DNA of 32,000 nucleotides from an uncultured bacterium (GTDB taxonomy: Bacteria > Margulisbacteria > WOR-1 > CAVSGV01): the NCBI GenBank assembly GCA_963699255.1, contig OY969425.1, positions 1,080,001 to 1,112,000 on the forward strand. Direction: 5' to 3'. Numbering within the stretch: the first letter of the stretch is position 1; each line of letters starts with the position of its first letter. The translations under genes were made by a program, and so were the position numbers. The notes under the pieces were generated by a model. The model saw only the letters and a program-made list of their open reading frames with translations. It searched no databases and was not told the origin of the DNA. Shown here piece after piece: positions 11,719 to 27,821 of the stretch.

Positions 11719-12015
11719 TTTCCAGTATAGCATTTTACCGCCTTTCCCTGTAAAGCGCGCTCACGTTAGGACTTCGTATAAAGCTCTCTGTCCCGAAAAA
11801 AGTCCTCATCCTTGCGGATTTTTTCGGGTATTTGTTCGCGCCCTCCTCCAGTCGCCCGACTAAAGTCGAGGCTCCTTCCGGCCCTCCGCTCCTTACGCTC
11901 ATTCACCATAATTAGATAATAGGTAGGGTTCATTCGCTCCTCTCGCTTCGGGTGACAGGGGCGGTAAAATGCTGTTCCTTCCTGTGTGTTTTCATTTCAC
12001 AGGGAGGTGGTTTTC
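11719..12015 (+). ncRNA. Conserved ~295-nt structured non-coding leader upstream of the DprA-like gene (copy 1). Could be a cis-RNA or a DNA element such as an origin
   Basis: It aligns with 25297..25591: ttccagtatagca..., gacttcgtataaagc, cctcatccttgcgga, ctcctccagtcgccc, gaggctccttccggccctccgct, ctcgcttcgggtgacagg. Single-base indels break any common reading frame. Two hairpins show compensatory changes between copies (11792..11828 and 11854..11872). Confidence 0.5.
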
Positions 12016-12551
12016 ATGTCTCGTTTAGCAGGTGTCATTGGTTCCCGTTCATTGCCCGTTTCTTTTGCCCCGCTTGTCTCCCACATTGTTTCCCTTCTCC
12101 TTTCCCGTGGCTACGGCATTGCCTCTGGCGGCGCTGTCGGCGCTGATTCATTTGCTCTTGCAGCGGTTATTCATCGGGGGGTGGCTTCACGCTGTGTCAT
12201 TTACTCCGCTTGGTCTTCTGCTTCGGGCTTTCCTTCCTCTGTTCAGCCTCAGGTTTCTCGTTTCCTTGCTTCTGGTGGTCAGGTTATATGGGGTTCCTGT
12301 CCGGTTGGTGCTTTGCGTCAGGAGGCGGTTTCTGCTCTTCTCGGCAGGAACAGGCGTCTTGTTTCTGCTTCCTCAGTCATTGTTGCCTTCCTACACACCT
12401 ACACAGCCAGTCTCGTGGCTCTCTTTACACGGTCCGTCAGGCTGTTGAGCAGGGTGTTCCGGTCATCGTGTTCCTTTGCGGCGGCGGTGCGTCTTTGCCC
12501 GCTGATCTTGCTTCCAGGTGTTTAGTGTTTACAGAAAAGGAGGTGGTTTAG
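12016..12551 (+). pseudogene. Minimal DprA-like (DNA_processg_A Rossmann core) gene, disrupted by an 8-bp tandem duplication
   Basis: RBS GGGAGGTGG precedes ATG 12016. MSRLAGVIGSRSLP...IASGGAVGADSFALAAV...LLGRNRRLVSASSVIVAFLH then shifts frame to SQSRGSLYTVRQAVEQGVPVIVFLC...EKEVV*. The duplication is cctacaca x2 at 12390..12405. Removing one copy restores AFLHSQSRG, colinear with AFIHGQSRG in the intact copy 25592..26116. Confidence 0.75.
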
Positions 12552-12552: not shown

Positions 12553-12729
12553 ATGTCAGCTTCAGTTTTGTCTCCATGCATATGCTGTCAGGATCGATTT
12601 CCTGATATGGCTTGCTGTTCAAGAGAAAAGTCTCGCTGTTATAGGTTTCTTGAATATATCGAGAGTCTTAGTAAAGCAAGGGCGCATAGCATCCTGATAA
12701 AAGAGCTCATAAGCTTGATTAACAAATAA
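12553..12729 (+). CDS. Cys-rich 58-aa protein conserved in both elements (absent from the ORF track because it is under 60 aa)
   Basis: The product is MSASVLSPCICCQDRFPDMACCSREKSRCYRFLEYIESLSKARAHSILIKELISLINK. It aligns with 26118..26309 (PCCYC...YAC..EK..CFKFLNYIQKLNRMRAQKVLIKEL). The same coupling sequence AAGGAGGTGGTTTAGTATG spans the DprA-like stop in both copies. Confidence 0.7.
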   Translation: MSASVLSPCICCQDRFPDMACCSREKSRCYRFLEYIESLSKARAHSILIKELISLINK

Positions 12730-13459: not shown

Positions 13460-13492
13460 AGGCCTGATCCATCATCGGAACAGGCCTTTTTT
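13460..13492 (+). terminator. Rho-independent terminator ending the DprA-like/cargo operon of copy 1
   Basis: The structure is AGGCCTG-(14 nt)-CAGGCCT followed by TTTTTT. Confidence 0.7.
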
Positions 13493-14743
13493 GGTCGCGT
13501 TAACTTTCTTTCCCTTCCCATTCAAAACAAATCATTTCCGCGCCTCTCCAAGCACGAACACAAAAAAGACGACGCAGGCAGATACAGCTGGCTTGAAATG
13601 AAGACAAAGTCAACAGTTCTTGTAGTTAGCGATGAATTGCTGACAACCAAGGACATCTTTAGCAAAGCATGGGGAAACTAGGTCAAATGGTCCAAGCGAA
13701 AACACACGATGAAACCTGCTCCCTGCTTGCCTGCCTTTGTAGGGATTGCCTCTGGCTGGTATGATGGTATAAGTCTTGGTGTAGGCGGGTCTTGATAGAA
13801 AGCGATCAGCTGAAGCTGCTTTTTTTGCCTGCTTGTCTTTGGCCTGATAACCATTCATTGTTCCGCTGCCTTACTGTTGAAATGTAAAATATGTGCGGGA
13901 TTCCGACTTGTCTGCCGACAGGCAGGCTTTACGTCGGGAGTCATCGCCTGTCCCCCTCTTTACGAACTGTAAGGCTGGCGGAAGCCTCGGCAAAAGCGGA
14001 TGTCATTGTTAATTGTGTAACTGTCTCAATCTGAGTCTGAGAATGAAGCAAAACAAATGTTACATTTCAGCCAACGTGAAATAGCATGGATAATCGCCTT
14101 GCCCCGTTTTCAGTAGTGGGAAATGCTCACTGTTCTTTTTCAAAGCCGGTAGCTCCCTGCCAGCCTGCCCCGCCGCAGGCGGTAGCTTGTTCTGCCTACC
14201 CACCTTTGACGAGATCGGCCTGTCCGCCTCTCTACGAGCTGTATGGCTGGCGGAAGTATCGGGATAATGAACTTGCTTACCACACCACAGGGGGTAGCTT
14301 GCATCAACCGGAGCATCGGGGCGATGAGTTTACTTGTCCCGCCTGTTCGCCTCTGGAGAAAGCGAAGCCGTAAGCCGAGGACTCCGACCAAGCTCAGTCG
14401 AGGTCTTGAAGGAGTAGGTTTTGCAGCAATAGTTTCAAACTCCCAGCGTGTCTAAAACTCTTTGGGTCAGGTTCTTCTGTCTTTTGTTCGTATTCATATC
14501 TAACATCATTGATCCTTTGTCTTTCTCTACTGCTAATGAACAACATCTATGTATCAACTGTTAAAATGAATATCCTTGTGTACCGAAGTAACAAATAAAA
14601 TCCCAATTTGGCCGGTCTGGCCGCGCGCCTGCGCTCGTGCGTATGTGCCTGTGTACGCGTATCGTATATAGAGGGATACTGTGAAGTTCCCCGGCTAAGT
14701 CACAGTATCGGGAGATCATTCTGAACGCCGCAAATTCAGCTTC

Positions 14744-14778: not shown

Positions 14779-14861
14779 AACAGTTCGACCTGAAGAAGGT
14801 TGCGCTACCAAGAAATTGGAGCAAACCGCTGATTTTCCTAGATCGGCGGTTTTTCTTTTTT
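14779..14861 (+). ncRNA. Candidate small transcript: tRNA-3'-end-like stub fused to a copy of the tRNA-Glu trailer and terminator
   Basis: It lies downstream of promoter 14744..14772. The sequence is ...cagTTCGAcctgaagaaggttgcGCTACCA, then the trailer, then the terminator CCGCTGAT-N8-ATCGGCGG-TTTTTCTTTTTT (14826..14861). From GCTACCA onward it is identical to the sequence following tRNA-Glu. Confidence 0.3.
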
Positions 14862-14956
14862 GGGAAGGTGTTCGGCGGTCGGCGTTTGGGCGGCGGCAAA
14901 CGCCGACCGCCGGAAAAGAACCTCCGTTCAGATTTTCCGCGCCAAAATCACTATAA
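14804..14956. repeat. IR1-L: left copy of a perfect 153-bp inverted repeat
   Basis: It is the reverse complement of 16581..16733, checked base by base with 153/153 matches. Confidence 0.95.
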
Positions 14957-15027
14957 CTAATTACTATTGTTGTTTTTCTTTTTGTAAATTGGCGCCCAAT
15001 ACTCAATATCCAAATGAATCCGGCCTT

Positions 15028-15234
15028 TTAAGATAAGCCCAAAAGCTTGTCTACTGAAACCCCCAAACCCACAGCTATCGCCTTCACCATCTCGATTCCC
15101 GGATTTTTCACCATCCCTTTTTCAACTCTTAACAAGTGATGTGAAGTAAACTTACCGCCACATTTAAAAGCTAATTTCTCTCGCGACAGACCTGTTTTTT
15201 TTCGATATTTCTCGATATTTTCACCTAAGTGCAT
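15028..15234 (-). CDS. Xre-family helix-turn-helix transcriptional regulator
   Basis: The 68-aa product contains LGENIEKYRKKTGLSREKLAFKCG...LLRVEKG..NPGIEMVKAIAVGLGVSVDKLL (HTH_3 pattern). It is divergent from the recombinase gene. Confidence 0.8.
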   Translation of the reverse strand: MHLGENIEKYRKKTGLSREKLAFKCGGKFTSHHLLRVEKGMVKNPGIEMVKAIAVGLGVSVDKLLGLS

Positions 15235-15324: not shown

Positions 15325-16767
15325 ATGAAAATAGCTATATATACGCGTGTTTCAACCGACACCCAGGCCGACAAAGAATTCAATTCCTGTGAAGCTCAGG
15401 AGCAGAAGATAAGGTCATTTGTCTTAAGTCAGGAAAATATGATGGTTTATAAAGTCTATTCCGACCAGGGTTATACAGGGGCTAACACTGACCGCCCCGC
15501 TCTAACGGAAATGCTTAACGACATACAGAATAGCAAGGTCGATCTTGTCGCTGCCTATAAAATTGACCGTCTCACTAGGTCGCCGAAAGACTTTTATCAT
15601 TTAATTGATATATTTGAACAACACAAGGTCAATTTTATATCCGTTACTGAACGATTCGATACCTCCACCCCATCGGGACGGCTTCTCAGGAATATCATGC
15701 TTACTTTCGCGCAATTCGAAAGAGAGCTTATCAGTGAAAGAACAAGAGATAAAATGCACGAATGCGCGAAAAAAGGCCTCTGGACTTGCGGCCATACGCC
15801 ATTTGGTTATAAAAGGCTAGAAAAGAAACTGATCATTGAGCCGGTAGAAGCAAAGATTGTAAGGGCTATCTTTGAAATCTTTATCTCTACAGGTTCAACT
15901 GCTGAGGTTTATAAGAAACTGAAAGAGAAAAGTTTGTTTAACAGGCGCGGATTGCCTATATCTCAAGAAGAAATCGGGAAAATACTCAAACGGATTGTAT
16001 ATATCGGTAAAATCGAATTTAAAGGCAATATTTATCAGGGAATTCATGAGCCGATAATTTCTGCTGAGTTACTTGAGGCTGCTCAGGGACTTCGCAAAGA
16101 AAGGGCAAAGAAAAGTAAAGTATTCAATTTCTCTCTTTTCCCCGGAATAGTTCTCTGTAAGGAATGCGGCTCAGTAATGAGCGCATCTTTCTCTAATAAG
16201 TTTAAAGATGCCCGCCGCATTAGATATTTTTATTATCGATGCTCAAGCGTTACAAAAAGGGACATTTCTTTTTGCGCCACCAGATATGTCAGTGCCGACC
16301 GCCTTGACTCGTTCATCATCGATAGTCTTGATAAGATATCGAAAAATCGGCAGTATCTTGAGAGTTTGATCTTCACGCTCAACTATCAGCAGGATGGGTG
16401 CCAAAAGGGAATCGAACCGGTGGGGTCGGCTTCATCCTATTCTCCTGAAAGGTTGAAAGATATCCTTCGAGATATTACTATGGTCCCGAAGTTTAAGTCC
16501 AAAACTGAAAAGGAAATTATCATTCAGAAGCATATTAAACAGATCAATTATTCAAAGGAAGCTATTGAAGTCGTGATAAATTATAGTGATTTTGGCGCGG
16601 AAAATCTGAACGGAGGTTCTTTTCCGGCGGTCGGCGTTTGCCGCCGCCCAAACGCCGACCGCCGAACACCTTCCCAAAAAAGAAAAACCGCCGATCTAGG
16701 AAAATCAGCGGTTTGCTCCAATTTCTTGGTAGCCCCACGGGGAATCGAACCCCGATCGTCAGCTTGA
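15325..16767 (+). CDS. Large serine recombinase (resolvase catalytic domain, recombinase domain and zinc ribbon)
   Basis: The N-terminus is MKIAIYTRVSTDTQ (catalytic Ser), followed by YKIDRLTRS and LRNIMLTFAQFERELISERT. A CKECGS...YYRCS zinc ribbon is present. It is about 70-75% identical by eye to 26312..27790 over the N-terminal domain. The last ~62 codons are encoded by IR1-R, and the ORF stops inside antisense tRNA-Glu (...APRGIEPRSSA). Confidence 0.9.
   Translation: MKIAIYTRVSTDTQADKEFNSCEAQEQKIRSFVLSQENMMVYKVYSDQGYTGANTDRPALTEMLNDIQNSKVDLVAAYKIDRLTRSPKDFYHLIDIFEQHKVNFISVTERFDTSTPSGRLLRNIMLTFAQFERELISERTRDKMHECAKKGLWTCGHTPFGYKRLEKKLIIEPVEAKIVRAIFEIFISTGSTAEVYKKLKEKSLFNRRGLPISQEEIGKILKRIVYIGKIEFKGNIYQGIHEPIISAELLEAAQGLRKERAKKSKVFNFSLFPGIVLCKECGSVMSASFSNKFKDARRIRYFYYRCSSVTKRDISFCATRYVSADRLDSFIIDSLDKISKNRQYLESLIFTLNYQQDGCQKGIEPVGSASSYSPERLKDILRDITMVPKFKSKTEKEIIIQKHIKQINYSKEAIEVVINYSDFGAENLNGGSFPAVGVCRRPNADRRTPSQKRKTADLGKSAVCSNFLVAPRGIEPRSSA
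16581..16733. repeat. IR1-R: right copy of the 153-bp inverted repeat, comprising the last 7 nt of tRNA-Glu plus its 3' trailer
   Basis: See IR1-L. On the tRNA strand it contains the tRNA terminator (16676..16711) and a 15-bp perfect hairpin GGCGGTCGGCGTTTG-N8-CAAACGCCGACCGCC. Confidence 0.95.
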
Positions 16768-16801
16768 AAAGCTGATGTCCTAACCGTTAGACGATGGGGC
16801 C
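16727..16801 (-). tRNA. tRNA-Glu (anticodon UUC), CCA encoded
   Basis: The sequence is GGCCCCATCGTCTAACGGTTAGGACATCAGCTTTTCAAGCTGACGATCGGGGTTCGATTCCCCGTGGGGCTACCA. It forms a cloverleaf with a 7-bp acceptor stem, TTCGATT T-loop and anticodon loop TTTTCAA. Confidence 0.9.
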
Positions 16802-18731: not shown

Positions 18732-18737
18732 TTGCGC

Positions 18738-18830
18738 GTCGATAAGGGGAGCCCATGAATGTGGGGCTGAGAACTCCGAATTGATCGGAGGACCCGTTGA
18801 ACTTGATCAGGTTAAAACCTGCGAAAGGAG
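18738..18830 (+). promoter_or_regulatory. TPP (THI-box) riboswitch, probably acting on translation
   Basis: The sequence AGGGGAGCC...GGGGCTGAGA...ACCCGTTGAACTTGATCAGGTTAAAACCTGCGAAAGGAG matches the conserved THI-box cores (GGGG.GC, CUGAGA, ACCC..GAACcUGAUC.GG.UAA.aCC.GCG.AGG). The RBS AAGGAG lies in the 3' closing strand, 7 nt before ATG 18837. Confidence 0.85.
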
Positions 18831-18836
18831 AAAATA

Positions 18837-19877
18837 ATGAACACAGACAAACTGCCCGAACTCGGAAAGATCCATCCTGACTTCTTCGACCGCGTGATAT
18901 ATCCCCGCTTGGGGGCTGATGATAAGAACATAGTGATCGGGCCCAGGCACGGCGTTGATTACGGGGTATTAAAGGTCGGCGACAAATATCTGGCGATATC
19001 CACAGACCCGTTCTTCATAGTCCCTTCCTTCGGATTCTCAAAAGCCGCGTGGTTCGGATTACATATAATACTATGCGATGTCGCGGTATCGGGACTTAAA
19101 CCAAGATACCTGACGATCGACCTCAACCTGCCTCCCGAGATGACCGAAGTTCAGCTGGAAGAAATGTGGGAGACCGTACATTCGGAATCGAAAAAATACG
19201 GCATAAGCGTGATCACAGGCCACACCGCGCGCTATACCGGATGTAACTATCCCATGGTCGGCGGAGCGACCGCCATCGCTATCGGCGGTGAAAAAGACCT
19301 GAGAGGCCCTCAAAAGGTGAAAGCCGGGGACAAGATCATCATAACGAAAGGCCCCGCAATAGAGACGACCGGCCTGCTTGCAGTCCTGTTCCCTCAAAAA
19401 TTCATTGAGGCCGGCGGCAAAGCTTTCCAGAAAGAGGCCGCGGATATTTTTGCCCAGATGTCGGTGATGGATGACTGCGCCATCGCGCGTGAATTTCCCG
19501 GGACCCGCGTTATGCACGACGCGACGGAGTGCGGGATATGGGGCGGACTTTACGAGATGGCGAAGGCGGGGAAATATGGAATAAGGGTTGAGGAGGAATT
19601 GATACCTATTCAGCCCGTAATCAAGAAGACCGCTGAACTTTTCAAGTTCGATCCTTTCTGCTCGATAAGCGAAGGAACTCTCATTGCGATCGTTGACGGG
19701 AAGGAAGCCGATGAACTCGTTGCTGCGTTTAAGAGAAACGGGATATTAAGCGCGGTCGTCGGCGATGTTCTGGCAGGGAACAAGGGGATCAAGATAGTCA
19801 GCGAAGGAAAAGAAAGAACGCTCGAACACCCTAAGATCGATCCTTACTGGAAATTAGCCGCGGAGTTTTCCAAGTGA
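18837..19877 (+). CDS. AIR-synthase-related (PurM/HypE/ThiL superfamily) protein under TPP riboswitch control
   Basis: The 346-aa product has a PurM-like N-domain pattern (GVDYGVLKVGDKYLAISTDPFFI, LHIILCDVAVSGLKPRYL, SVITGHTARY) and a C-domain pattern (MHDATECGIWGGLYE). Confidence 0.7.
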   Translation: MNTDKLPELGKIHPDFFDRVIYPRLGADDKNIVIGPRHGVDYGVLKVGDKYLAISTDPFFIVPSFGFSKAAWFGLHIILCDVAVSGLKPRYLTIDLNLPPEMTEVQLEEMWETVHSESKKYGISVITGHTARYTGCNYPMVGGATAIAIGGEKDLRGPQKVKAGDKIIITKGPAIETTGLLAVLFPQKFIEAGGKAFQKEAADIFAQMSVMDDCAIAREFPGTRVMHDATECGIWGGLYEMAKAGKYGIRVEEELIPIQPVIKKTAELFKFDPFCSISEGTLIAIVDGKEADELVAAFKRNGILSAVVGDVLAGNKGIKIVSEGKERTLEHPKIDPYWKLAAEFSK

Positions 19878-21117: not shown

Positions 21118-21146
21118 TGGTGGCTCGACCCGTTTCCTGCCGAGCC
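21118..21146 (-). other. Acceptor-stem-like microhelix with an encoded ACCA end, in the tRNA-Pro leader
   Basis: The minus strand reads GGCTCGG-CAGGAAACGGG-TCGAGCC-ACCA, with a 7-bp stem (the last pair is G-T). It sits 9 nt downstream of the -10 box. Confidence 0.45.
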
Positions 21147-21155
21147 ATCCCTCTG

Positions 21156-21184
21156 ATTATACCCAACACTATTCACGGGTGCAA
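21156..21184 (-). promoter_or_regulatory. Promoter TTGCAC-17-TATAAT reading toward tRNA-Pro
   Basis: The minus strand reads cTTGCACccgtgaatagtgttgggTATAATcagaggg. It lies about 160 nt upstream of the mature tRNA-Pro 5' end. Confidence 0.6.
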
Positions 21185-21268: not shown

Positions 21269-22000
21269 TCATGATTCTTTCTTTTTTTGAGATAGCGCAC
21301 TTTCTATGCCAAATAAAATTAAATGTGCTGAGCAAGCCAAGGAGATGCCGGAATTATAAGGTAGCTTTGCAACGCGTTTATTATTATCATCATATAAAGA
21401 AATTGAGTCGGGCAAAAACCCATATATTATTCCAATAAATTTCCCATCTTCTTGGGAGAATACTGGGGAGCCACTATTCCCGTGGCTGGCAGCCCCGTCA
21501 ATCAATAAAACATTTTTATCTTTTGTGATATTGGCAATGCTCCCTCGTCTAATAAACGGCTTAAATTGCAATTCTTCATTAGCAAGTCCCAATGGGTATC
21601 CTAAATATACAACAAATAAGCCCTCTTTAATCTCGCTATGCTGTTTCAGCTCGTCAACATCTAGTAATTCGCGCGGCCCAAACACTTCCTCCAGCGTTTT
21701 ACCAACATCCTCTTGCCTATGTGGTATTGAAAATAATGCCAAATCAAGGTTTGTATGAGCAGTTTCAAACTTGACTTTTCTTATTATCCTCTTATCGGGA
21801 TTAAGAAGCACTTTTATTTCACCATTTCTTGCAAGTTGGCCTACATGTTTATTTGTTAAAATAAAAGGAACAAATTCATCTTGCGATATCTTCTTTTGTA
21901 TAAGTGTGCCAGTCATTGATGGTGTTTCACGCTCCCAATCCAATATTGCAACAACACTTTTGTGACGTTTAATGTAAATTTCCCTGGTATCAATCGCCAT
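21269..22000 (-). CDS. Trypsin-like (S1/Trypsin_2-type) serine protease, with no signal peptide
   Basis: The catalytic-triad context is ILTNKHV (His), NLDLALF (Asp) and GAASHGNSGSPVF (Ser). The product is 243 aa. Confidence 0.75.
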   Translation of the reverse strand: MAIDTREIYIKRHKSVVAILDWERETPSMTGTLIQKKISQDEFVPFILTNKHVGQLARNGEIKVLLNPDKRIIRKVKFETAHTNLDLALFSIPHRQEDVGKTLEEVFGPRELLDVDELKQHSEIKEGLFVVYLGYPLGLANEELQFKPFIRRGSIANITKDKNVLLIDGAASHGNSGSPVFSQEDGKFIGIIYGFLPDSISLYDDNNKRVAKLPYNSGISLACSAHLILFGIESALSQKKKES

Positions 22001-22124: not shown

Positions 22125-23114
22125 TTATTTGCACAACAAATATTTAACTTTATTGCCTGACCCAACACATTTAATTTTACCTTCAGAAGCGAGTTCTTTT
22201 ACATATTTACAGACCGTGAGATATCCCCTTCTAATTGTATGTGATATTTCATTTATAGATAGTTTGTCCGCAGTTTGCAACAATTGAATAATTTGCTGCT
22301 TACTTTCCATCTTTCTTTCTTTAGCCTCTCTTGATCTTGCTTCCACGGTTTTTGAAAATGCTGCTAATGTATTAGGATGCATTCTATGTTTAGGCCTTTC
22401 GATACCATATTCTATTCTAAATTTATGTATATTCCCCCAATACCGATTAATCTTCCTCCAAGTTAACGCCCAAGACATCCTCGAGCTTAGTTCTGTTGTG
22501 CTGGGATGATGCCCTAAGCAATCAACTATCTGCTGATACCCTTGCAAGCATTTCCCAATCCTTTGTTGCCTTTTGTATTCACCATAATCAATATTAAAAT
22601 GCTTAATAAGTAACTTTAAGTCAATATTATCAATATTAAGCTTCTCGCATAATTCGTTTGTATTAAATGTTTCTCTGATAGCCGCGATAATCCTATCCCT
22701 TGAATATGAGGTGACAAGCTTTTCAATGTTATGCACCTTGTGCCTTTCATAAACAAATAACCCGTACTTACCGCCCTTTTCCAATAATTGTCTTACGCGT
22801 TCCCTTGTAACATTTAATTCATCTCCAACTTTTTGTAACGTTAAATATTTATCATATAGTGTTTTTACCTCCATCAAATGTTTTGCTACATCAGGGGAAA
22901 CAGGCCTCTCTATCCCCAACCTTTTTCGAAGTTCAAATATTCCAATCCCTCCATCAGGATCAAGCAACTCTAAAAGAAATGAATACGGCACATTAAGTAT
23001 TTGTGCTACCTTAACCAAGGAATAAGCATTTCGCCACATTCTAATAATCTCATACTTAATGGCCTCAGAATTCTTGGTGTTAAACAATAACTGCAGTTTT
23101 TTTAATGGCTTCAT
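22125..23114 (-). CDS. Multi-HTH DNA-binding protein with sigma-70 region-4-like repeats and a C-terminal winged helix
   Basis: It contains LTLQKVGDELNVTRERVRQLLEKG (sigma r4-like), SLVKVAQILNVPYSFLLELL and RYWGNIHKFRIEYGI. The C-terminal region is LSINEISHTIRRGYLTVCKYVKELASEGKIK. Its start overlaps the GHKL gene stop by 4 bp (ATGA). Confidence 0.6.
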   Translation of the reverse strand: MKPLKKLQLLFNTKNSEAIKYEIIRMWRNAYSLVKVAQILNVPYSFLLELLDPDGGIGIFELRKRLGIERPVSPDVAKHLMEVKTLYDKYLTLQKVGDELNVTRERVRQLLEKGGKYGLFVYERHKVHNIEKLVTSYSRDRIIAAIRETFNTNELCEKLNIDNIDLKLLIKHFNIDYGEYKRQQRIGKCLQGYQQIVDCLGHHPSTTELSSRMSWALTWRKINRYWGNIHKFRIEYGIERPKHRMHPNTLAAFSKTVEARSREAKERKMESKQQIIQLLQTADKLSINEISHTIRRGYLTVCKYVKELASEGKIKCVGSGNKVKYLLCK

Positions 23115-24853
23115 TCTTCTGTCTCTTTAGGCGCCTGTTTTGAGGCAAGCCGGGCTAACTCATTGTAGACTTGATTAAAAATAATAAGGTTCCCTTCGCT
23201 ATAGTCATGGGAAATTTCAGTAAAAGCAACATCACGAACAAGGCTATCCAGACAAGCATCCTTTGAAGCTCTTATATAAAAACTATGCTTTTCGTTGATC
23301 TCAATTAAATTGCTATCCTTTGTAAACTTCACTAAATCTCCTGTTTCTGACATATCTACAGTATTTATATTATAATTCTTGCCTGAATATGCCATTTTTT
23401 CTGCTTTATTAAGACTTTGGTTCCTTCTTTCCCTTTTATCTTTCCCTCTAGTTACAACACCAGCTGCTTTTTTTGCCTCTTCTTCAACCTTATCTAAATT
23501 CGGATAAGGATTATCGGGCGCGTTCTCAATTTCCTTTGTAAACTCTTTTTTAATTTTTGCTTCTAAACTACCCAGAGTAAGCGGATCATCAAGTTTAGAA
23601 ACAATAGTATTTACTTCGGTCTCAACTCGCTTTACTATATTTCGATCCTGTTCCTTCTTTGCAGTTTCATCTTTTTTTAATAACTTATTTTGAACATCAG
23701 AAATTGACTTGTGTCCAAAATCCCAATACTCCCGATATTCAGGACAATCTACGAAATCGTTTTTTGCAAATGTAACAAAGTTTTTAAGCCCGTCCGCTTC
23801 CCCATATCCAAATAACCTATATCGATATCTTCCTCCTGATGTTAATCTAAACAAATCAAACCATTCAGCTTTCTCATTGACAATTCTGCCATTTACTCGC
23901 GTCCATACCCCCTGCTTTGTTACAGGGATAGGCTCTTTGGTGAAATAGATAACTAATTTTACATGGCCAATTAGCTTGAGATCTTTCTCATATTCAAATT
24001 TTTCGTTATACTCAAATTTTGGCTCCTCTATTTCAATATCTTTTCTTTCTCTCTCTTTAATAATTGACATAATTATTTTAAAGTTTTGACTTTTTGGCAT
24101 TTTATTTTCAAATCGTTCAATCAAGCGATCACTATCAATAGTTTTAGCGTTTAATTGTTCCATATAAATTGCTGTACCATGTAAGTCTTTTCCACATTGC
24201 TTTGTGAACACTTTGCTTCTTATTGCACTTACATATTTTGCCTTGTCCAATTCTGCTCTATTCATATTGAAAATATGTTCTTTTCCATCTTTTTTCGTTA
24301 TTATCTTGCATACCTTACATATATTTGTTATTGCTAATTTACCACCCATTCCATATTCGCCAATTGGAGATCTACTAAATTTTGGGGATTTTGAATCAGC
24401 AGTTTTATTACTTTCTCCGTATATTACATATGATGCGAGAGCTTCTTCGTCCATCCCATTTCCATCATCAATAATATTTAAAGCATTTTTGTCATAATCT
24501 AATATTATCTGGACCGTAGTTGCGTCTGCATCATATGCGTTAACAATTAATTCTTCGATATTTGAAGCAAGTTCTTGAAAGGTTCTTTTTGCCATCTTTT
24601 TAATGCCGACTGTTGCAAAATCTCCCCTTAATTCCCATTCCTTAAATTCTTCTCCTTCATTTTCCGATTTAATATTCTCATGGTCATGAATGTAATCCGT
24701 AACAGTCTTTTTTGAGAATTTGTATCTTGATCCAACTTTCCTTCCGGGAAGATCCCCTTTTTCAGCTAATTTATAAAGTGTCTGTCTCGTAATTCCAAGC
24801 AATTTACATGCTTCTTCGGTAGATATTGGTTCCAATAAATTATTTTCATTCAT
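23111..24853 (-). CDS. Fusion of an excisionase/MerR-type HTH with a GHKL (HATPase_c_3, MORC-like) ATPase and a large uncharacterised C-terminal region
   Basis: The HTH is EEACKLLGITRQTLYKLAEKGDLPGRKVGSRYKF. The Bergerat-fold motifs are N-box EELIVNAYDADAT, G1 IIDDGNGMD and G2 IGEYGMGGKLA. The product is 580 aa. RBS GGGAGG is present. Confidence 0.75.
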   Translation of the reverse strand: MNENNLLEPISTEEACKLLGITRQTLYKLAEKGDLPGRKVGSRYKFSKKTVTDYIHDHENIKSENEGEEFKEWELRGDFATVGIKKMAKRTFQELASNIEELIVNAYDADATTVQIILDYDKNALNIIDDGNGMDEEALASYVIYGESNKTADSKSPKFSRSPIGEYGMGGKLAITNICKVCKIITKKDGKEHIFNMNRAELDKAKYVSAIRSKVFTKQCGKDLHGTAIYMEQLNAKTIDSDRLIERFENKMPKSQNFKIIMSIIKERERKDIEIEEPKFEYNEKFEYEKDLKLIGHVKLVIYFTKEPIPVTKQGVWTRVNGRIVNEKAEWFDLFRLTSGGRYRYRLFGYGEADGLKNFVTFAKNDFVDCPEYREYWDFGHKSISDVQNKLLKKDETAKKEQDRNIVKRVETEVNTIVSKLDDPLTLGSLEAKIKKEFTKEIENAPDNPYPNLDKVEEEAKKAAGVVTRGKDKRERRNQSLNKAEKMAYSGKNYNINTVDMSETGDLVKFTKDSNLIEINEKHSFYIRASKDACLDSLVRDVAFTEISHDYSEGNLIIFNQVYNELARLASKQAPKETEE

Positions 24854-24934: not shown

Positions 24935-25002
24935 GAGGCAAAATGCTGGGCGCCATTTATAAGAGTGGGGGTCTAAGGAACGCGCCCGCATGTAGTGAAT
25001 GC

Positions 25003-25048
25003 GTTGGGTATAATCAGAGGTCTGGCTCGGCAGGAAACGGGTCGAGCC
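25003..25048. repeat. Inverted copy of the tRNA-Pro promoter and microhelix module
   Basis: gttgggTATAATcagaggtctGGCTCGGCAGGAAACGGGTCGAGCC is the reverse complement of 21122..21167, with a 3-nt difference (tct versus gat). Weaker identity extends to gtgaat (24995..25000). Confidence 0.9.
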
Positions 25049-25081
25049 ATTTTATCGTTCCCGCAAACCATTGCGGATTTT
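25021..25081 (+). ncRNA. Candidate ~60-nt transcript: microhelix fused at the discriminator position to a copy of the tRNA-Met trailer and terminator (a tRNA-gene mimic)
   Basis: The -10 TATAAT lies at 25009..25014. The microhelix GGCTCGG..TCGAGCC-A is at 25024..25049. The trailer follows, with terminator CCGCAA-acca-TTGCGG-ATTTT at 25061..25081. Confidence 0.3.
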
Positions 25082-25231
25082 GGGCGGCTTGGAGCGGCGC
25101 TTGCGTCGCGACAAGCCGCCTTATTCTTAGCTGAAAGCAAGTTCTCTTCCGCCGAAGGGTCGCAAAGCGGGCCGTAGGCGGCATTTTTAGCGTCAGCGCA
25201 GGAAGGATCTCCGCTCTCGGAATACAATAAC
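25047..25231. repeat. IR2-L: left copy of a 185-bp inverted repeat
   Basis: It is the reverse complement of 27568..27752 with 184/185 matches. The single mismatch is at 25206. Confidence 0.95.
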
Positions 25232-25296
25232 ATGCCTTCTATTGCCTCTATCGAATATTATGCCACTTTCCGATGTGCCATTTAATTTTTCCATCA

Positions 25297-25591
25297 TTTC
25301 CAGTATAGCATTTTTTTGCTTTTCTCCTGTAAAGGTCGCTCACGGAGGGACTTCGTATAAAGCACTCTATCCAGAAAAATCCTCATCCTTGCGGATATTT
25401 TCTGGTAAAAGTTCGCTCCCTCCTCCAGTCGCCCGCCTCCGGCGAGGCTCCTTCCGGCCCTCCGCTTCGTTACGCTCTCTCGCCCATATCTCCGCTTAAG
25501 GTAGGCTCGTTCGCTTCACTCGCTTCGGGTGACAGGCGCAAAAAAATGCTCCTCCTTCCTTGTATTCATATTTTTTACAGGAGGTGGTCAT
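25297..25591 (+). ncRNA. Conserved structured non-coding leader (copy 2)
   Basis: It is homologous to 11719..12015. The hairpins are at 25371..25405 (CCAGAAAA...TTTTCTGG) and 25431..25448 (GCCCGCC-tcc-GGCGAGGC). ORF 25242..25499 is not conserved in frame in copy 1. Confidence 0.5.
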
Positions 25592-26116
25592 ATGTCTCGT
25601 ATTGTTGGTATTGTTGGTTCCAGGTCTCTTCCCGCTTCTTTTTCCTCGCTCATTTCCTCGCTTGTGTCCGCGTTAGTTGCTCGTGGTTTCAGGGTGGCCT
25701 CAGGCGGCGCTGTAGGGGCTGATCAGTTTGCTCTTTCAGCCCTCGTTGAGCAGGGTTTGTCTGCATCGGGTGTTGTTTTTTCTGCCTGGGCTTCCGCTTC
25801 CGGTTTTCCTGTTCCGGTCCGGCCTCTTGTTTCCCGTTTTCTTGCTTCCGGTGGTCAGGTTGTTTGGGGTTCCGGTTCGTCGTCTCAGCCTCGTTCAGCG
25901 GTGGTTTCCGCGCTTCTCGGCAGGAACAGCCGTCTTGTTTCAGCCTGTTCGCTTGTCATTGCTTTCATTCACGGCCAGTCCCGGGGAACGCTTTACACCA
26001 TCCGTCAGGCTGTCAGGCGCGGTATTCCTGTTTATGTGTTCCTTTGCAGTGAGGCTTCATTGCCAGCTGATTTGGCTCCTCACTGTTTAGTTATAAATAA
26101 AAGGGAGGTGGTTTAG
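25592..26116 (+). CDS. Minimal DprA-like protein (DNA_processg_A Rossmann core only, 174 aa), with an extremely adenine-poor coding strand
   Basis: RBS AGGAGGTGG precedes ATG 25592. The product contains IVGIVGSRSLP...VASGGAVGADQFALSAL...ALLGRNSRLVSACSLVIAFIHGQSRGTLYTIRQAVRRGIPVYVF. This follows the DprA pattern (GSR ... SG.A.G.D ... RN.... S..V.V.E....SG.L.T...A...G..V...). The SAM and winged-helix domains of full-length DprA are absent. Confidence 0.65.
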   Translation: MSRIVGIVGSRSLPASFSSLISSLVSALVARGFRVASGGAVGADQFALSALVEQGLSASGVVFSAWASASGFPVPVRPLVSRFLASGGQVVWGSGSSSQPRSAVVSALLGRNSRLVSACSLVIAFIHGQSRGTLYTIRQAVRRGIPVYVFLCSEASLPADLAPHCLVINKREVV

Positions 26117-26117: not shown

Positions 26118-26309
26118 ATGGTTTTCATTCCCATTCATCCGTGCTGTTACTGTGGAAAAACCGAGACAGGATATGCCTGTACGACAGCAGAAAAAGTCGA
26201 GTGTTTTAAATTTCTGAATTATATTCAGAAACTCAACAGAATGAGGGCGCAGAAAGTGCTGATAAAAGAGCTTAAATATTTACTAGAAACAAACAAAGGA
26301 GGTAAATAA
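26118..26309 (+). CDS. Cys-rich 63-aa protein conserved in both elements
   Basis: The product begins MVFIPIHPCCYCGKTETGYACTTAEKVECFKFLNYIQKLNRMRAQKVLIKELKYLL... It is coupled to the DprA-like stop (TAGTATG). Its homologue is 12553..12729. Confidence 0.7.
   Translation: MVFIPIHPCCYCGKTETGYACTTAEKVECFKFLNYIQKLNRMRAQKVLIKELKYLLETNKGGK

Positions 26310-26311: not shown

Positions 26312-27821
<1,510 letters not shown>

What the first reader, a model, noticed from the sequence alone, without database searches (positions are those of the whole stretch)
25592..26116. Extreme adenine depletion of the DprA-like coding strand, leaving all three forward frames open
I counted A residues by hand in 60-nt lines. 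The counts were 4/60 (12061-12120), 3/60 (12181-12240), 3/60 (25621-25680) and 1/60 (25801-25860). The adjacent recombinase gene has 21/60 (26341-26400). Every stop codon contains A, so both copies show long ORFs in all three + frames (11986/12032/12210 and 25529/25728/25864). The protein is built almost entirely from S, R (CGN), L, V, G, A, F and P, with almost no K, N, D, E, T or I. Codons are T-rich at the third position (tct cgt gtt ggt gct), a style reminiscent of ssDNA-phage genes. The bias is conserved in two copies that differ at about one third of residues, and it stops abruptly at the micro-ORF. This argues for selection on this segment rather than a replicon-wide mutational bias. 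Possible explanations are evasion of an A-dependent endoribonuclease or toxin, a requirement for mRNA or ssDNA structure, or mosaic acquisition from an ssDNA replicon.
Basis: seen in the sequence. Interest (0 to 1): 0.75.

Follow-up and report, generated by a model that had tools for sequence, protein, structure and literature searches.

The report
Adenine-purged DprA-like gene on mobile element
One small gene carried by a mobile element of Margulisbacteria has had almost every adenine removed from its coding strand, and this has held in more than 100 relatives over long evolutionary time, which is most simply read as selection to give its messenger RNA no sites for an adenine-dependent RNA-cutting enzyme.

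Summary
The DprA-like CDS (25592-26116) is 10% A overall and 5.5% in its core. The window mean is 28% (z = -3.9). The second copy (12016-12551) shows the same depletion.

The trait is family-wide. 104 homologous genes from Margulisbacteria/Saganbacteria average 8.4% A. In 0.59 Mb of their surroundings, nothing else has A or T below 10%.

The depletion begins at the start codon and ends at the Shine-Dalgarno sequence of the next gene. It affects synonymous sites (A at 4-fold sites is 5% against 22%) and amino-acid choice (K, E, N, D, T and I are lost). It persists although synonymous sites are saturated (dS about 1.1, dN/dS 0.21). This points to continuing strand-specific selection.

New result: the purge depends on neighbouring bases and not on reading frame. 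GA and AA are nearly forbidden, TA is intermediate, CA is tolerated, and CAG is not depleted. This argues for an agent that reads the nucleic acid rather than a tRNA or codon effect.

Rejected explanations: mRNA structure (z = +0.2), overlapping or open reading frames, acquisition from an ssDNA replicon, and a DGR.

Best explanation (confidence about 0.35): an mRNA segment made resistant to an A-dependent endoribonuclease, paired with a conserved, covarying 5' hairpin domain. The agent itself is unidentified.

The parts
25592..26116 (+). DprA/ShosA-like CDS, copy 2 (174 aa). This is the adenine-purged cistron, and it is intact.
   Evidence: Pfam PF02481, E = 1.6e-13. AlphaFold2 pLDDT 90. Foldseek matches ShosA 8zva and DprA 3maj/4ljk/3uqz. 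A is 10.1% overall and 5.5% in the core. Family dN/dS is 0.21.
12016..12551 (+). DprA-like CDS, copy 1. It is adenine-purged (9% A) but frameshifted by an 8-bp tandem duplication, CCTACACA x2, at 12390-12405. It is probably a recent pseudogene.
   Evidence: Alignment of the two copies. Removing 8 nt restores the family C-terminus ...LHSQSRGSLYTVRQAV...KEVV*. As written, the reading frame ends at 12525.
25307..25550 (+). Conserved structured domain upstream of copy 2. The closing stem pairs 25307-25332 with 25530-25550. Inside it are variable hairpins and conserved pyrimidine-rich single-stranded blocks (CTCCCTCCTCCAGTC, CCTTCCGGCCCTCCGC).
   Evidence: It is more conserved than the CDS between the two copies. 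The closing stem is 96.6% paired in 42 sequences, with 82 double-change cells against 23 in shuffles. Inner helices also covary. Fold z = -3.9 as RNA on the + strand and -3.0 as DNA on the - strand. There is no Rfam match.
11729..11973 (+). The same structured domain upstream of copy 1.
25579..25586 (+). Shine-Dalgarno sequence AGGAGGTG of the DprA-like cistron. The adenine purge starts immediately after the ATG.
26118..26309 (+). Micro-ORF (63 aa, Cys-rich CxxC...C). It is translationally coupled: its SD lies in the last codons of the DprA-like gene (TAG-T-ATG). Its A content is normal (38%).
   Evidence: It is conserved in position across loci. It has no Pfam or PADLOC hit.
26312..27790 (+). 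Large serine recombinase, the third gene of the operon. Its A content is normal (32%).
   Evidence: Pfam Resolvase + Recombinase + Zn_ribbon_recom. Composition.
25047..25258 (.). Left arm of a 212-nt inverted repeat (98% complementary). It is an inverted copy of the 3' end of the recombinase gene.
   Evidence: The same architecture occurs in 7 or more other loci and at the ends of metagenomic contigs.
27541..27752 (.). Right arm of the inverted repeat. It is the 3' end of the recombinase gene and ends at the CCA end of tRNA-Met (27750-27821, - strand).
   Evidence: In 19 loci the right arm abuts a tRNA 3' end, and the tRNAs differ between loci.
12553..12729 (+). Micro-ORF of element 1 (58 aa).
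15325..16767 (+). Large serine recombinase of element 1. It is flanked by a 166-nt inverted repeat (14799-14964 / 16573-16738) and abuts tRNA-Glu (16727-16801, - strand).

Best explanation
The segment is a genuine, translated gene. It encodes a single-domain DprA/ShosA-like ssDNA-binding Rossmann protein. It is the first cistron of a three-gene operon (DprA-like, Cys-rich micro-ORF, large serine recombinase) on a small element that sits at the 3' ends of tRNA genes in Margulisbacteria.

Long-term, strand-specific purifying selection has removed adenine from its sense strand wherever the protein tolerates the change. Synonymous A is replaced mostly by T. K, E, N, D, T, I and Y are replaced by S, V, A, G, R and Q. 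About half of the remaining A-containing codons sit in 23 conserved codon columns.

The purge is limited to one cistron, is independent of reading frame, and depends on the flanking bases (GA and AA much stronger than UA, UA stronger than CA, CAG exempt). The most likely selective agent is therefore an enzyme that reads single-stranded sense RNA and needs adenine to cut. Each A would be a potential cleavage site, and one cut anywhere between the SD and the stop codon would inactivate the message.

An A-free body gives such an enzyme nothing to hold. The conserved 5' stem-loop domain would additionally block decay that depends on the 5' end. The result would be a cistron that outlasts the rest of the transcript (the recombinase part has normal A content) and the rest of the transcriptome. 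This is a natural counterpart of the engineered 'ACA-less mRNA' trick used with MazF.

There are two candidate agents. One is the housekeeping RNase E of the cyanobacterial lineage. In Synechocystis its cuts are positioned by A at -3/-4 and U at +2, and it is specifically needed for RNAs with strong 5' structure. The other is an A-directed toxin or defence RNase of the HigB, YafQ or HEPN kind.

Shown here: the gene, the selection, the boundaries, the context rule and the hairpin. Inferred: that the target is RNA, that the agent is a nuclease, and which nuclease it is.
For: - **Real protein under purifying selection.** Pfam DprA E = 1.6e-13, pLDDT 90, Foldseek matches to ShosA and DprA, dN/dS 0.21.
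- **Nucleotide-level constraint.** A at 4-fold sites is 5.1% against 21.6%. CAG:CAA is 118:2, GAG:GAA is 26:0, and AGY/AGR codons are avoided.
- **Continuing constraint.** dS is about 1.1 and third-position identity is 49.5%, yet A stays near 5% in 104 genes.
- **Limited to the cistron.** A falls from 18-25% to 1-2% within 30 nt of the ATG and recovers at the next gene's SD. The downstream genes of the same operon are normal.
- **Unique.** No other window with A or T below 10% exists in 591 kb.
- **Residual A is at constrained residues.** 53% of A-containing codons fall in 23 of 175 columns.
- **Context rule.** P(A|C_G) is 0.227 against 0.274 in background. GAN is depleted 9-49 fold and AAN 5-16 fold. 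The same C > T > G neighbour order appears independently at codon position 3 and at codon position 1 (AGR/AGY after C 13-16%, after T 2-7.5%, after G 0-0.3%).
- **Composition fits selection against A plus ordinary AT-biased mutation.** T rises to 52% and G does not rise.
- **The hairpin and the purge go together and scale together.** No hairpin goes with 24-26% A. A short hairpin goes with about 14-20% A. The large domain goes with 5-9% A.
- **Literature.** Cyanobacterial RNase E uses A(-3/-4) and U(+2) and handles RNAs with strong 5' structure (PMC8682795). HigB and YafQ cut A-rich codons (PMC4931118). ACA-less mRNAs escape MazF (PMC9102682 and PMC5408214, listed; the statement itself is from my own knowledge).
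Against: - No nuclease was identified in the window or in the related loci.
- Whether these bacteria have an RNase E with the cyanobacterial specificity was not tested.
- No known RNase that I could name has the observed rule (RA much stronger than UA, UA stronger than CA, CAG spared). RelE in fact prefers CAG and UAG.
- The SD and start codon still contain A.
- A test for avoidance of U at +4/+5 from residual A was inconclusive. The ratios were 0.69-0.73, but other offsets deviate as well.
- A housekeeping RNase would be expected to shape other genes too, and no other gene shows the bias.
- The data cannot separate selection on A in the RNA from selection on T in the template strand.
- The neighbour statistics pool related sequences, so the counts are not independent events.
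Confidence: 0.35

Rival explanations
1. Thymine avoidance in the template strand, linked to expression from single-stranded DNA. In this view the upstream hairpin is an Frpo-like ssDNA promoter (or single-strand origin) that forms in the minus strand. The first gene after it is transcribed from a naked ssDNA template. T in that template is selected against. Possible reasons are that T is the target of ssDNA-directed attack (DarT ADP-ribosylates thymidine in TNTC/TCT/TTT motifs; 6-4 photoproducts form at TC/TT and cannot be repaired in ssDNA), or that T-rich ssDNA is coated by SSB, RecA or DprA and blocks RNA polymerase.
For: - The minus strand of the 5' arm reads TTGACA-N20-TGnTAnAAT. The invariant -10 positions are not explained by base pairing, and they lie opposite non-complementary bases at the base of the hairpin.
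- No conserved + strand promoter faces the gene. The + strand has GTGACA-N15 and no -10.
- The geometry matches Frpo, in which the transferred strand is the template (PMC11541004).
- The context rule, read on the template, is TC and TT avoided and TG tolerated. That resembles DarT and 6-4 photoproduct specificity (enzyme specificities are from my own knowledge).
- The protein is an ssDNA-binding type.
- The hairpin and the purge scale together.
Against: - There is no relaxase, oriT, T4SS or Rep gene in the element, so no known route to ssDNA.
- The 20-nt spacer is atypical for sigma-70.
- The sister family has the homologous hairpin but no recognisable -10 on either strand.
- Non-Watson-Crick pairs in the stem are G.T on the + strand more often than on the - strand (14 against 5 in the core stem).
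- The micro-ORF and the recombinase would be read from the same template but are not T-poor.
- The 5' UTR is not purged.
Confidence: 0.17
2. Composition tuned for binding by the gene's own product, on the model of T4 gp32. The DprA-like ssDNA-binding protein binds its own U-rich, A-poor mRNA (or the + strand as ssDNA), nucleated at the 5' hairpin. This would serve autoregulation, cis-protection, or preferential loading of RecA at this segment.
For: - The protein has the DprA/ShosA fold. ShosA binds ssDNA and RecA (PMC12961424).
- A structured nucleation element followed by a long region without excess structure (z = +0.21) and with biased composition resembles the gene 32 autoregulatory site (the gp32 comparison is from my own knowledge).
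- The hairpin travels with the gene in two families that have different neighbours.
Against: - This predicts selection for U-richness or low structure, not for excluding A while keeping 27-30% each of G and C.
- It does not predict the neighbour rule or the exemption of CAG.
- It does not explain why the bias covers the whole CDS exactly.
- The base preference of this protein is unknown.
Confidence: 0.1
3. Robust transcription when adenine nucleotides are scarce. An A-poor transcript needs little ATP as a substrate. It could therefore still be made when a toxin or defence system depletes or deaminates ATP/dATP or disturbs purine pools. Examples are PRTase toxins such as ShosT, ATP nucleosidases and RADAR.
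For: - The closest characterised relative, ShosA, is the antitoxin of ShosT, an APRT-like phosphoribosyltransferase that disturbs purine metabolism (PMC11961720; PADLOC ShosA E = 1.2e-9).
- A hit-count logic explains why the first cistron matters most.
Against: - G is not depleted (29%), so this is not a general purine economy.
- ATP limitation should be blind to neighbouring bases, yet CAG is exempt and GA is nearly forbidden.
- Translation itself needs ATP.
- No ShosT-like gene lies next to any family member examined.
- The 5' UTR is not purged.
Confidence: 0.07
4. A locus-specific mutational process rather than selection. Examples are adenine-directed hypermutation (DGR-like mutagenic retrohoming, or an adenosine deaminase acting on an exposed strand) or transcription-associated damage to the non-template strand.
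For: - Repeated A-specific mutagenesis would erase A except where it is selected, which is the pattern seen.
- The effect is strand-specific.
Against: - There is no reverse transcriptase and no template/variable repeat pair in the element or near any of about 100 homologues.
- A-to-I deamination predicts a gain of G, but G at 4-fold sites is lower than background (19.5% against 22.5%) and the gain is in T.
- The boundaries coincide with the start codon and the next gene's SD to within about 30 nt, although the downstream genes share the transcript.
- The protein is under ordinary purifying selection.
Confidence: 0.07
5. Selection on the protein or on translation speed only. Either a lysine-free, acid-poor, highly basic protein is needed (for example to escape lysine-directed tagging), or there is extreme codon adaptation for fast early expression. 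In both cases adenine loss would be a side effect.
For: - K is at 0.01 times and E at 0.1 times background, while R is raised 1.4 fold.
- Genes behind ssDNA promoters in plasmid leading regions are GC-richer and codon-adapted (PMC13478746).
- The gene has a strong SD.
Against: - Protein composition cannot explain a four-fold loss of A at 4-fold sites, or CAG:CAA of 118:2.
- The neighbour effect crosses codon boundaries, which neither protein composition nor tRNA choice predicts.
- I know of no case in which codon adaptation removes half of the amino-acid alphabet (own knowledge).
Confidence: 0.06
6. The explanations implied or listed by the first reader and tested here. These are: selection to keep several reading frames open (overlapping genes), a requirement for mRNA secondary structure, and relic composition from an ssDNA replicon.
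For: A-poverty removes most stop codons on both strands. T-rich third positions recall ssDNA phages.
Against: - Alternative-frame stops equal the synonymous-shuffle expectation in all five frames. The +3 frame is never open, and the minus frames are open in 6% of sequences or fewer.
- TCA, which is a minus-strand stop, is among the best-tolerated A-containing codons.
- The CDS fold z-score is +0.21.
- The bias persists at dS about 1.1 in 104 genes and is absent from phage homologues.
- The family has no close relatives in IMG/VR.
Confidence: 0.03

Closest known systems
Cleavage-site-free mRNAs that escape sequence-specific mRNA interferases (ACA-less mRNAs under MazF, the 'single protein production' system; PMC9102682 and PMC5408214, listed)
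   Same: A coding sequence is rewritten, using synonymous and conservative changes, so that the message lacks the element a ribonuclease needs. It then remains translatable while other mRNAs are destroyed.
   Different: That case is engineered and removes one trinucleotide. Here the avoidance is natural and ancient, and it covers almost every adenine, to the point of reshaping the amino-acid alphabet. ACA itself is not specially targeted: 2 ACA remain in 525 nt. The nuclease has not been identified.
Cyanobacterial RNase E 'A-U clamp' cleavage signature (PMC8682795)
   Same: This is the main endoribonuclease of the sister lineage. It positions cuts by an adenine 3-4 nt upstream and a uridine 2 nt downstream in single-stranded RNA, and it is the route for degrading RNAs with strong 5' structure. 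An A-free message behind a 5' hairpin is what one would design to escape it.
   Different: It is not known whether Margulisbacteria have this enzyme or this specificity. The clamp does not predict the rule that C before A is tolerated. No other gene in these genomes shows the bias.
A-directed, ribosome-dependent toxins HigB and YafQ (PMC4931118), and A-preferring HEPN RNases such as Csx1/Csm6 (own knowledge)
   Same: These enzymes cut at adenosine-rich codons or after adenosines. HigB and YafQ act only within translated regions, which would explain a purge limited to the CDS.
   Different: The neighbour effect here is independent of reading frame, which argues against recognition of A-site codons. 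No such toxin was found near the element.
Frpo / ssi single-stranded DNA promoters and codon-adapted early genes in plasmid leading regions (PMC11541004; PMC13478746)
   Same: A long imperfect hairpin carrying -35 and -10-like sequences lies directly upstream of an ssDNA-related gene on a mobile element. The gene behind it has unusual, GC-richer composition.
   Different: There is no conjugation machinery or oriT. The spacing is 20 nt. There is no sequence relationship to Frpo. The compositional effect reported for plasmids is mild codon adaptation, not exclusion of a base.
ShosA, the DprA-like antitoxin of the ShosTA defence system (8zva; PMC11961720, PMC12961424)
   Same: It is the best structural match (Foldseek E = 1e-9, TM 0.73) and the best PADLOC match (1.2e-9). 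It has a DprA-like Rossmann domain that binds ssDNA.
   Different: ShosA is 303-308 aa with extra regions, and only profile positions 116-260 are matched. No ShosT toxin gene is adjacent. The gene is coupled instead to a micro-ORF and a serine recombinase. I did not examine the base composition of shosA genes.
Adenine-poor signal-sequence coding regions of vertebrate mRNAs (PMC2100149, listed; content from my own knowledge)
   Same: A stretch of coding sequence is depleted of adenine at the nucleotide level, and the depletion acts through the RNA rather than the protein.
   Different: That case is eukaryotic and covers about 60 nt. It is linked to nuclear export and is far less extreme. It is unrelated in mechanism and lineage.

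Membership tests
DprA/Smf (Pfam PF02481, DNA_processg_A) | Rossmann-like DprA core domain recognisable by sequence and by fold | tested here: met
   Pfam E = 1.6e-13, 50.8 bits against a cut-off of 29.6, profile positions 45-187 of 212. Foldseek matches DprA structures 3maj, 4ljk, 3uqz and 5mll with probability 1.00 and TM about 0.7.
DprA/Smf (Pfam PF02481, DNA_processg_A) | Full-length architecture of transformation DprA (N-terminal SAM-like domain and C-terminal winged-helix/DML1 extension, about 280-380 aa) | tested here: not met
   The protein is 174 aa and the core domain fills it. TM normalised to the targets is only 0.37-0.46 for full-length DprA.
DprA/Smf (Pfam PF02481, DNA_processg_A) | Binds ssDNA and loads RecA during natural transformation | not testable with these tools
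   This is a biochemical property. The net basic composition (R 7.6%, D+E 2%) is compatible with it.
ShosTA toxin-antitoxin defence system (ShosA antitoxin) | DprA-like antitoxin matching the ShosA profile or structure | tested here: inconclusive
   PADLOC ShosA E = 1.2e-9, but only positions 116-260 of 303 are matched. The top Foldseek hit is 8zva at 18% identity.
ShosTA toxin-antitoxin defence system (ShosA antitoxin) | Adjacent ShosT phosphoribosyltransferase toxin gene | tested here: not met
   The neighbours are a micro-ORF and a serine recombinase. No PRTase appears in the window annotation or in the sister-family loci.
Frpo-type single-stranded DNA promoter | Long hairpin whose stem carries -35 and -10 elements, oriented so that the folded strand is the template of the downstream gene | tested here: inconclusive
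   The hairpin is strongly supported. TTGACA and TGnTAnAAT lie on the minus strand in the correct orientation, but they are 20 nt apart. The sister-family hairpin lacks a -10. The G.T bias slightly favours folding of the + strand.
Frpo-type single-stranded DNA promoter | Located in the leading region of a conjugative element next to oriT | tested here: not met
   No relaxase, T4SS or oriT-like feature was found among the genes of the element or the flanks.
Diversity-generating retroelement (adenine-specific mutagenesis) | Reverse transcriptase plus a template repeat / variable repeat pair | tested here: not met
   No RT domain is present in the window ORFs. The only repeats are the inverted repeats of the recombinase 3' end.
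Large serine recombinase integrative element | Resolvase + Recombinase + zinc-ribbon domains, with the element bounded by an attachment site at a conserved host gene | tested here: met
   All three Pfam domains are present in both recombinases. The right end abuts the CCA end of a tRNA gene in the window and in 19 related loci.
Any Rfam RNA family (for the upstream domain) | Match to a curated covariance model | tested here: not met
   There is no hit at gathering thresholds and none up to E = 10 within the domain.

The most novel reading that the evidence does not exclude
Excluding adenine from a whole cistron is an evolved 'stealth message'. A mobile element writes the one protein it needs first in a three-letter RNA alphabet (plus CAG), so that the message is invisible to an adenine-dependent RNase or modifier. 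The message is paired with a dedicated 5' hairpin domain, which may also act as a single-strand promoter. This would be the first natural case of single-base exclusion used as an expression-insulation device. The neighbour rule (RA much stronger than UA, UA stronger than CA, CAG spared) would be the footprint of a nuclease specificity that has not yet been described.
Probability: 0.3. Interest if true: 0.85.

Novelty: new variant of a known kind. Interest (0 to 1): 0.78.

Why it matters
Avoidance of short motifs, such as restriction sites or toxin cleavage sites, is a familiar signature of conflict. Near-total exclusion of one of the four bases from a single gene is not something I could find described. 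The literature searches found no prokaryotic precedent.

Here the exclusion has been held for long enough to saturate synonymous sites and to cut the protein's amino-acid alphabet roughly in half.

If the explanation is right, three things follow:
- The pattern gives a sequence-only way to infer the specificity of an unknown RNase from its evolutionary footprint.
- It shows how far a folded enzyme-like domain can be rebuilt from about 10 amino acids (pLDDT 90).
- It offers a natural design rule for nuclease-proof mRNAs.

It also draws attention to three other features:
- An uncharacterised family of small elements that insert at tRNA genes, use a serine recombinase and carry 160-212-bp inverted repeats.
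- A new covarying structured element upstream of the gene.
- A possible orphan relative of a defence-system antitoxin.

Tried and rejected
1. **Overlapping genes or frames kept open.** I counted stops in the five alternative frames in 86 homologues and compared them with synonymous-codon shuffles. There was no difference.
2. **mRNA structure in the CDS.** The MFE z-score is +0.21.
3. **Known RNA family for the upstream domain.** Rfam gave nothing at gathering thresholds or up to E = 10.
4. **DGR or reverse-transcriptase mutagenesis.** There is no RT and no TR/VR pair.
5. **A-to-G deamination.** G is not enriched at 4-fold sites.
6. **Phage origin.** There are no close relatives in IMG/VR, and distant phage DprA-like genes have normal A.
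7. **RNA:DNA hybrid stability (own idea).** I compared nearest-neighbour hybrid energies, recalled from memory, for A against U in each context. They predict that CAG is least affected and GAC strongly affected. They also wrongly predict that U-flanked A should be the most avoided. I dropped the idea.
8. **CpG-to-CpA mutational input as the cause of CA tolerance.** The NCG precursor codons are no commoner than NTG or NGG, and CAC is not enriched although CGC is common. This is unlikely without CpG-specific hypermutation.
9. **Out-of-frame stop avoidance as the cause of the neighbour rule.** This fails because A after G is the most avoided although G|AG is not a stop.
10. **RNase E clamp test.** U at +4/+5 of residual A is mildly depleted, but so are other offsets. 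Inconclusive.
12. **RNA-guided targeting of different tRNAs by the upstream domain.** I considered this briefly. The variable hairpins do not track the tRNA identity: the window copies and L001 share a hairpin type but sit at Met, Glu and Val tRNAs. I did not pursue it.
Full report

Yes. The copy 2 CDS (25592-26116) contains 53 A in 525 nt (10.1%). The 200-nt window 25701-25900 is 5.5% A, 27% C, 30.5% G and 37% T. The longest A-free run is 91 nt, at 25766-25856. Across all other 525-nt windows on both strands of the 32-kb window, A averages 27.9% (sd 4.5%, minimum 15.2%), so the gene lies 3.9 sd below the mean. Copy 1 (12016-12551) is 9% A. A is low at all three codon positions: 12%, 11% and 7%.

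**2. What is the segment?**

It is a real protein-coding gene.
- Pfam assigns it to DprA (PF02481, E = 1.6e-13).
- An AlphaFold2 model built on 35 homologues has mean pLDDT 90 and a Rossmann-like alternation of strands and helices.
- Foldseek finds ShosA (8zva), several DprA structures (3maj, 4ljk, 3uqz), YpsA and LOG/SLOG proteins.
- PADLOC matches ShosA (1.2e-9) and PsyrA.
- ShosA is the DprA-like antitoxin of the ShosTA defence system and binds ssDNA and RecA (PMC12961424 and PMC11961720).

The annotated frame is under purifying selection. The median dN/dS is 0.21 with dS about 1.1, and identity by codon position is 76%, 84% and 49.5%.

Copy 1 carries an 8-bp tandem duplication (CCTACACA x2, 12390-12405) that shifts the frame. 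Deleting one unit restores the family C-terminus, so copy 1 is probably a recent pseudogene. Because the sequence has so few stop codons, the shifted frame runs on for about 40 codons. L021 has a different frameshift.

**3. Setting**

Both copies have the same layout: a conserved non-coding domain of about 250 nt, the DprA-like gene behind a strong AGGAGGTG Shine-Dalgarno sequence, a Cys-rich micro-ORF whose SD lies in the last codons of the DprA-like gene (TAG-T-ATG), and a large serine recombinase.

The host lineage is Margulisbacteria/Saganbacteria/WOR-1, going by the source names of the homologues.

Copy 2 is bracketed by a 212-nt inverted repeat, 98% complementary (25047-25258 and 27541-27752). 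Its right arm is the 3' end of the recombinase gene and stops at the CCA end of tRNA-Met. The same arrangement recurs in other genomes: arms of 160-207 nt, 76-100% identical within an element, about 2.3 kb apart. Some metagenomic contigs begin and end in the arms. In 19 loci the right arm abuts a tRNA 3' end, and ten different tRNA species are involved. In L004 the tRNA sits at the left arm instead. In element 1 of the window the repeat flanks only the recombinase, and extra genes lie between it and the micro-ORF. The family has no close relatives in IMG/VR. These are therefore small non-phage elements that insert at tRNA genes.

**4. How general is the adenine loss?**

A protein search returned 194 relatives. 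I obtained DNA for 26 genome loci and 80 metagenome loci.
- Among 104 CDS, A averages 8.4% with a minimum of 3.2%. All members at 60% identity or more lie between 3% and 13%.
- A-free runs reach 175 nt.
- In 591 kb of these loci, the only other 300-nt windows with A or T below 10% are truncated copies of the same gene.
- A sister family (46-52% identity, 35 proteins) has about 14-20% A.
- More distant DprA-like genes, including phage-borne ones, have 19-33% A.

The trait is derived, specific to one clade and graded.

**5. Anatomy of the depletion**

*Boundaries.* Averaged over 17 loci, A is 18-25% just upstream, 9% in the first 30 nt, and 1-2% at +30 to +90. It stays at 4-13% until 30 nt before the stop codon, where the next gene's SD restores it.

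*Synonymous sites.* At 4-fold sites the composition is A 5.1%, C 23%, G 19.5% and T 52%, against 21.6%, 25.8%, 22.5% and 30.1% in other long ORFs of the same loci. CAG:CAA is 118:2, GAG:GAA is 26:0 and AAG:AAA is 15:2. AGY makes up 5% of Ser codons against 31%, and AGR makes up 16% of Arg codons against 49%.

*Amino acids.* Relative to background, K is at 0.01 times, E 0.10, N 0.12, T 0.22, Y 0.25, I 0.26 and D 0.27. S, V, A and G are doubled and Q is raised 1.5 fold.

*Residual A.* 53% of A-containing codons fall in 23 of 175 alignment columns. These include M1, the invariant D44, Q54, Q89, N112, T136, Q139, D160 and the SD at the C-terminus.

A+T at 4-fold sites is about 57% here against 52% in background, while the A share moves almost entirely to T. 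This is what selection against A on top of ordinary AT-biased mutation would produce. An A-to-G deamination process would instead raise G, and G does not rise.

**6. A new clue: the purge depends on the neighbours of A and not on the reading frame**

The probability of A between C and G is 0.227, against 0.274 in background genes. CAG is therefore essentially not depleted and holds 39% of all residual A. The other contexts are depleted as follows:

| Context | Fold depletion |
|---|---|
| Other CAN | about 3 |
| TAN | 4-26 |
| AAN | 5-16 |
| GAN | 9-49 |

At codon position 3, NCA codons keep 16-42% of their background share, NTA 6-14% and NGA 0-5%.

At codon position 1, the neighbour belongs to the preceding codon, and the same order appears. 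AGR and AGY are used in 13-16% of cases after a C-ending codon, 2-7.5% after T and 0-0.3% after G. These counts pool related sequences, so the chi-square p-values (1e-11 and 1e-28) are overstated.

Because the rule crosses codon boundaries, it is a property of the nucleic acid. It is not a property of codons, tRNAs or amino acids.

**7. Explanations tested and rejected**

- *Open frames or overlapping genes.* Stops in the five alternative frames match synonymous-shuffle expectation. The +3 frame is never open.
- *mRNA structure.* The CDS folds no better than dinucleotide shuffles (z = +0.21).
- *Relic of an ssDNA replicon.* This is incompatible with saturation of synonymous sites and with the normal composition of phage homologues.
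- *DGR-type mutagenesis.* There is no RT and no repeat pair.
- *Protein-only selection.* This cannot explain the synonymous sites or the neighbour rule.

**8. The upstream domain**

Two conserved blocks pair with each other: TAGCATTTTTyCGCC...CCTGTCA and TGACAGG..GGCGrAAAAATGCT. They enclose about 200 nt. In 42 sequences, 96.6% of cells form pairs. There are 82 double-compensatory cells against 23 in shuffles. Slid controls pair only 37-54%. Inner hairpins covary too, while two pyrimidine-rich blocks stay single-stranded. The domain folds better than shuffles (z = -3.9 as RNA on the + strand, -3.0 as DNA on the - strand). It matches no Rfam family.

On the minus strand the 5' arm reads TTGACA-N20-TGnTAnAAT. 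The -10 positions are invariant but are not explained by pairing, and they lie opposite unpaired bases at the base of the hairpin. No + strand promoter is conserved in front of the gene. This geometry is that of an Frpo-type single-strand promoter with the minus strand as template (PMC11541004).

Three points count against that reading:
- The element has no conjugation or rolling-circle genes.
- The spacing is atypical.
- Stem wobble pairs slightly favour folding of the + strand (14 G.T against 5 A.C).

The sister family keeps a shorter, clearly homologous hairpin (AACATTTTGC..CCGTCAAGGC / GCCTTGACC..GCAAAATGTT) without a -10. There it sits beside restriction-modification and Hachiman genes rather than a recombinase. 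The hairpin therefore belongs with the DprA-like gene, and its size scales with the purge: none at 24-26% A, short at about 14-20% A, large at 5-9% A. I cannot decide whether it acts as an RNA leader or as folded DNA.

**9. Most likely mechanism**

The facts to explain are these. The purge is strand-specific and limited to a single cistron. It acts at the nucleotide level and is independent of frame. It is sensitive to neighbouring bases and maintained by selection. It is coupled to a 5' hairpin and sits on a mobile element.

The simplest model is hit avoidance. Each sense-strand adenine is a potential site at which the message can be inactivated, so the number of sites between the SD and the stop codon is driven toward zero.

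An A-dependent endoribonuclease fits best. In Synechocystis, from the sister phylum, RNase E places cuts using A at -3/-4 and U at +2 in single-stranded RNA, and it is the enzyme needed for RNAs with strong 5' structure (PMC8682795). A U-rich but A-free body behind a 5' stem-loop would escape both internal entry and 5'-end-dependent decay. The A-normal recombinase portion would decay as usual.

A-directed toxins such as HigB and YafQ (PMC4931118) or HEPN RNases are alternatives. The engineered precedent is ACA-less mRNA in cells expressing MazF (papers listed; the statement is from my own knowledge).

There are weaknesses. No agent was found. No RNase I know has the observed rule. No other gene shows the bias. 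A test for avoidance of U at +4/+5 was inconclusive. I put this explanation at about 0.35.

The main rival (about 0.17) places the target on the template strand. The rule then reads: T followed by C or T is avoided, and TG is tolerated. This rival links the purge to transcription from ssDNA through the hairpin. Smaller shares go to binding of the message by the gene's own product (0.10), ATP-sparing transcription (0.07), a local mutator (0.07) and protein or codon-speed selection (0.06).

**10. Comparison with known systems, and novelty**

The protein belongs to the DprA superfamily by domain, but it lacks the full DprA architecture. It resembles ShosA but has no ShosT partner. It should not be filed as either system.

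The principle of avoiding the target of an enzyme is well known. What I could not find described is the scale: one base excluded from a whole gene, conserved in more than 100 relatives, with the amino-acid alphabet rebuilt around it. The searches found only eukaryotic or metabolic uses of terms such as 'adenine-poor'. I therefore rate it as a new variant of a known kind, with high interest. The neighbour rule, the hairpin domain and the inverted-repeat elements are all open to direct experimental test.

Noticed in passing
window 25047-25258 and 27541-27752; 14799-14964 and 16573-16738; L001-L006, L010, L013, L034, L037, L100: Inverted repeats of 160-212 nt, 76-100% identical within each element although the elements differ by 25-35%. 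One arm is the 3' end of the serine recombinase gene. The arms flank the whole 2.3-kb module or, in element 1, only the recombinase. Some contigs start and end in the arms. The left arm carries an 86-aa ORF (24973-25233, - strand) that repeats recombinase residues 420-481. The function is unknown: terminal repeats of the element, an inversion substrate, or sequences kept alike by concerted evolution.
   Followed up: partly
window 27750-27821, 16727-16801; loci; L004 5472-5556 against L006 8131-8213: The right repeat arm abuts the CCA end of a tRNA gene on the opposite strand in 19 loci. Ten different tRNA species are involved (Met, Glu, Val, Lys, Ile, Tyr, Ala, Arg, Asn, Leu). In L004 the same tRNA-Tyr junction is at the left arm, so the module occurs in both orientations relative to a tRNA. 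This suggests generic targeting of tRNA 3' ends by these recombinases.
   Followed up: partly
window 25307-25550 and 11729-11973: A structured element of about 250 nt with strong covariation and no Rfam match. It contains conserved CCUCC-rich single-stranded blocks (anti-SD-like on the + strand, GGAGG-rich on the - strand) and a conserved sigma-70-like -35 / extended -10 on the minus strand. A shorter homologue precedes the sister-family genes (L119-L122, about 40-140 nt upstream of the start).
   Followed up: partly
window 12390-12405: An 8-bp tandem duplication (CCTACACA x2) frameshifts copy 1 of the DprA-like gene. L021 has a different frameshift. Because the sequence has almost no stop codons, the shifted frame stays open for about 40 codons.
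   Followed up: yes
window 21121-21167 and 25003-25049; genes 21269-22000, 22125-23114, 23111-24853 (all - strand): A 47-nt inverted repeat (96%) ends in a small hairpin plus CCA and directly adjoins the left arm of the 212-nt repeat. It brackets a 3.9-kb block of three genes: HATPase_c_3 + HTH_17, an HTH/sigma-70 region 4 protein with weak CARF-like hits, and a trypsin-like peptidase (PADLOC PDC-S45, 3e-16). This may be a defence-type cargo island.
   Followed up: partly
window 26118-26309 and 12553-12729: A conserved Cys-rich micro-ORF (58-63 aa; CxxC plus further Cys, with a conserved RAxxxLIKEL motif) is translationally coupled to the DprA-like gene. It has no family match. It may be a zinc-ribbon DNA-binding factor or a directionality factor for the recombinase.
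   Followed up: no
window 15028-15234 (- strand); L010 1483-1695, L012 8886-9089, L015 1240-1434: A small HTH protein (PADLOC 'Control_protein' 6e-8, capH-like) is divergently placed just upstream of the recombinase in a subset of elements.
   Followed up: no
L119 259-3849, L120 133-3877, L122 61-2492: Sister-family DprA-like genes lie directly beside restriction-modification genes (BsuBI/PstI-type endonuclease with N6 methyltransferases; EcoRII-C with a C5 methylase and HhH-GPD; BsobI-type) and a Hachiman HamA gene. These are defence-island contexts without a recombinase.
   Followed up: no
window 18735-18846; 83-6217: A TPP riboswitch (57 bits) lies upstream of the gene at 18837-19877. The window also contains a 2044-aa protein with FlgD-Ig, CHU_C and Por_Secre_tail (type IX secretion) domains. 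Both are ordinary host features.
   Followed up: no
window 12745-14700: Element 1 carries extra small genes with no family assignment between the micro-ORF and the left repeat arm (12745-13269, 13271-13453, 13610-13858 on the - strand, 14086-14373). Homologues of the first two recur in L008, L014, L021 and L022 (clusters c3 and c2).
   Followed up: no
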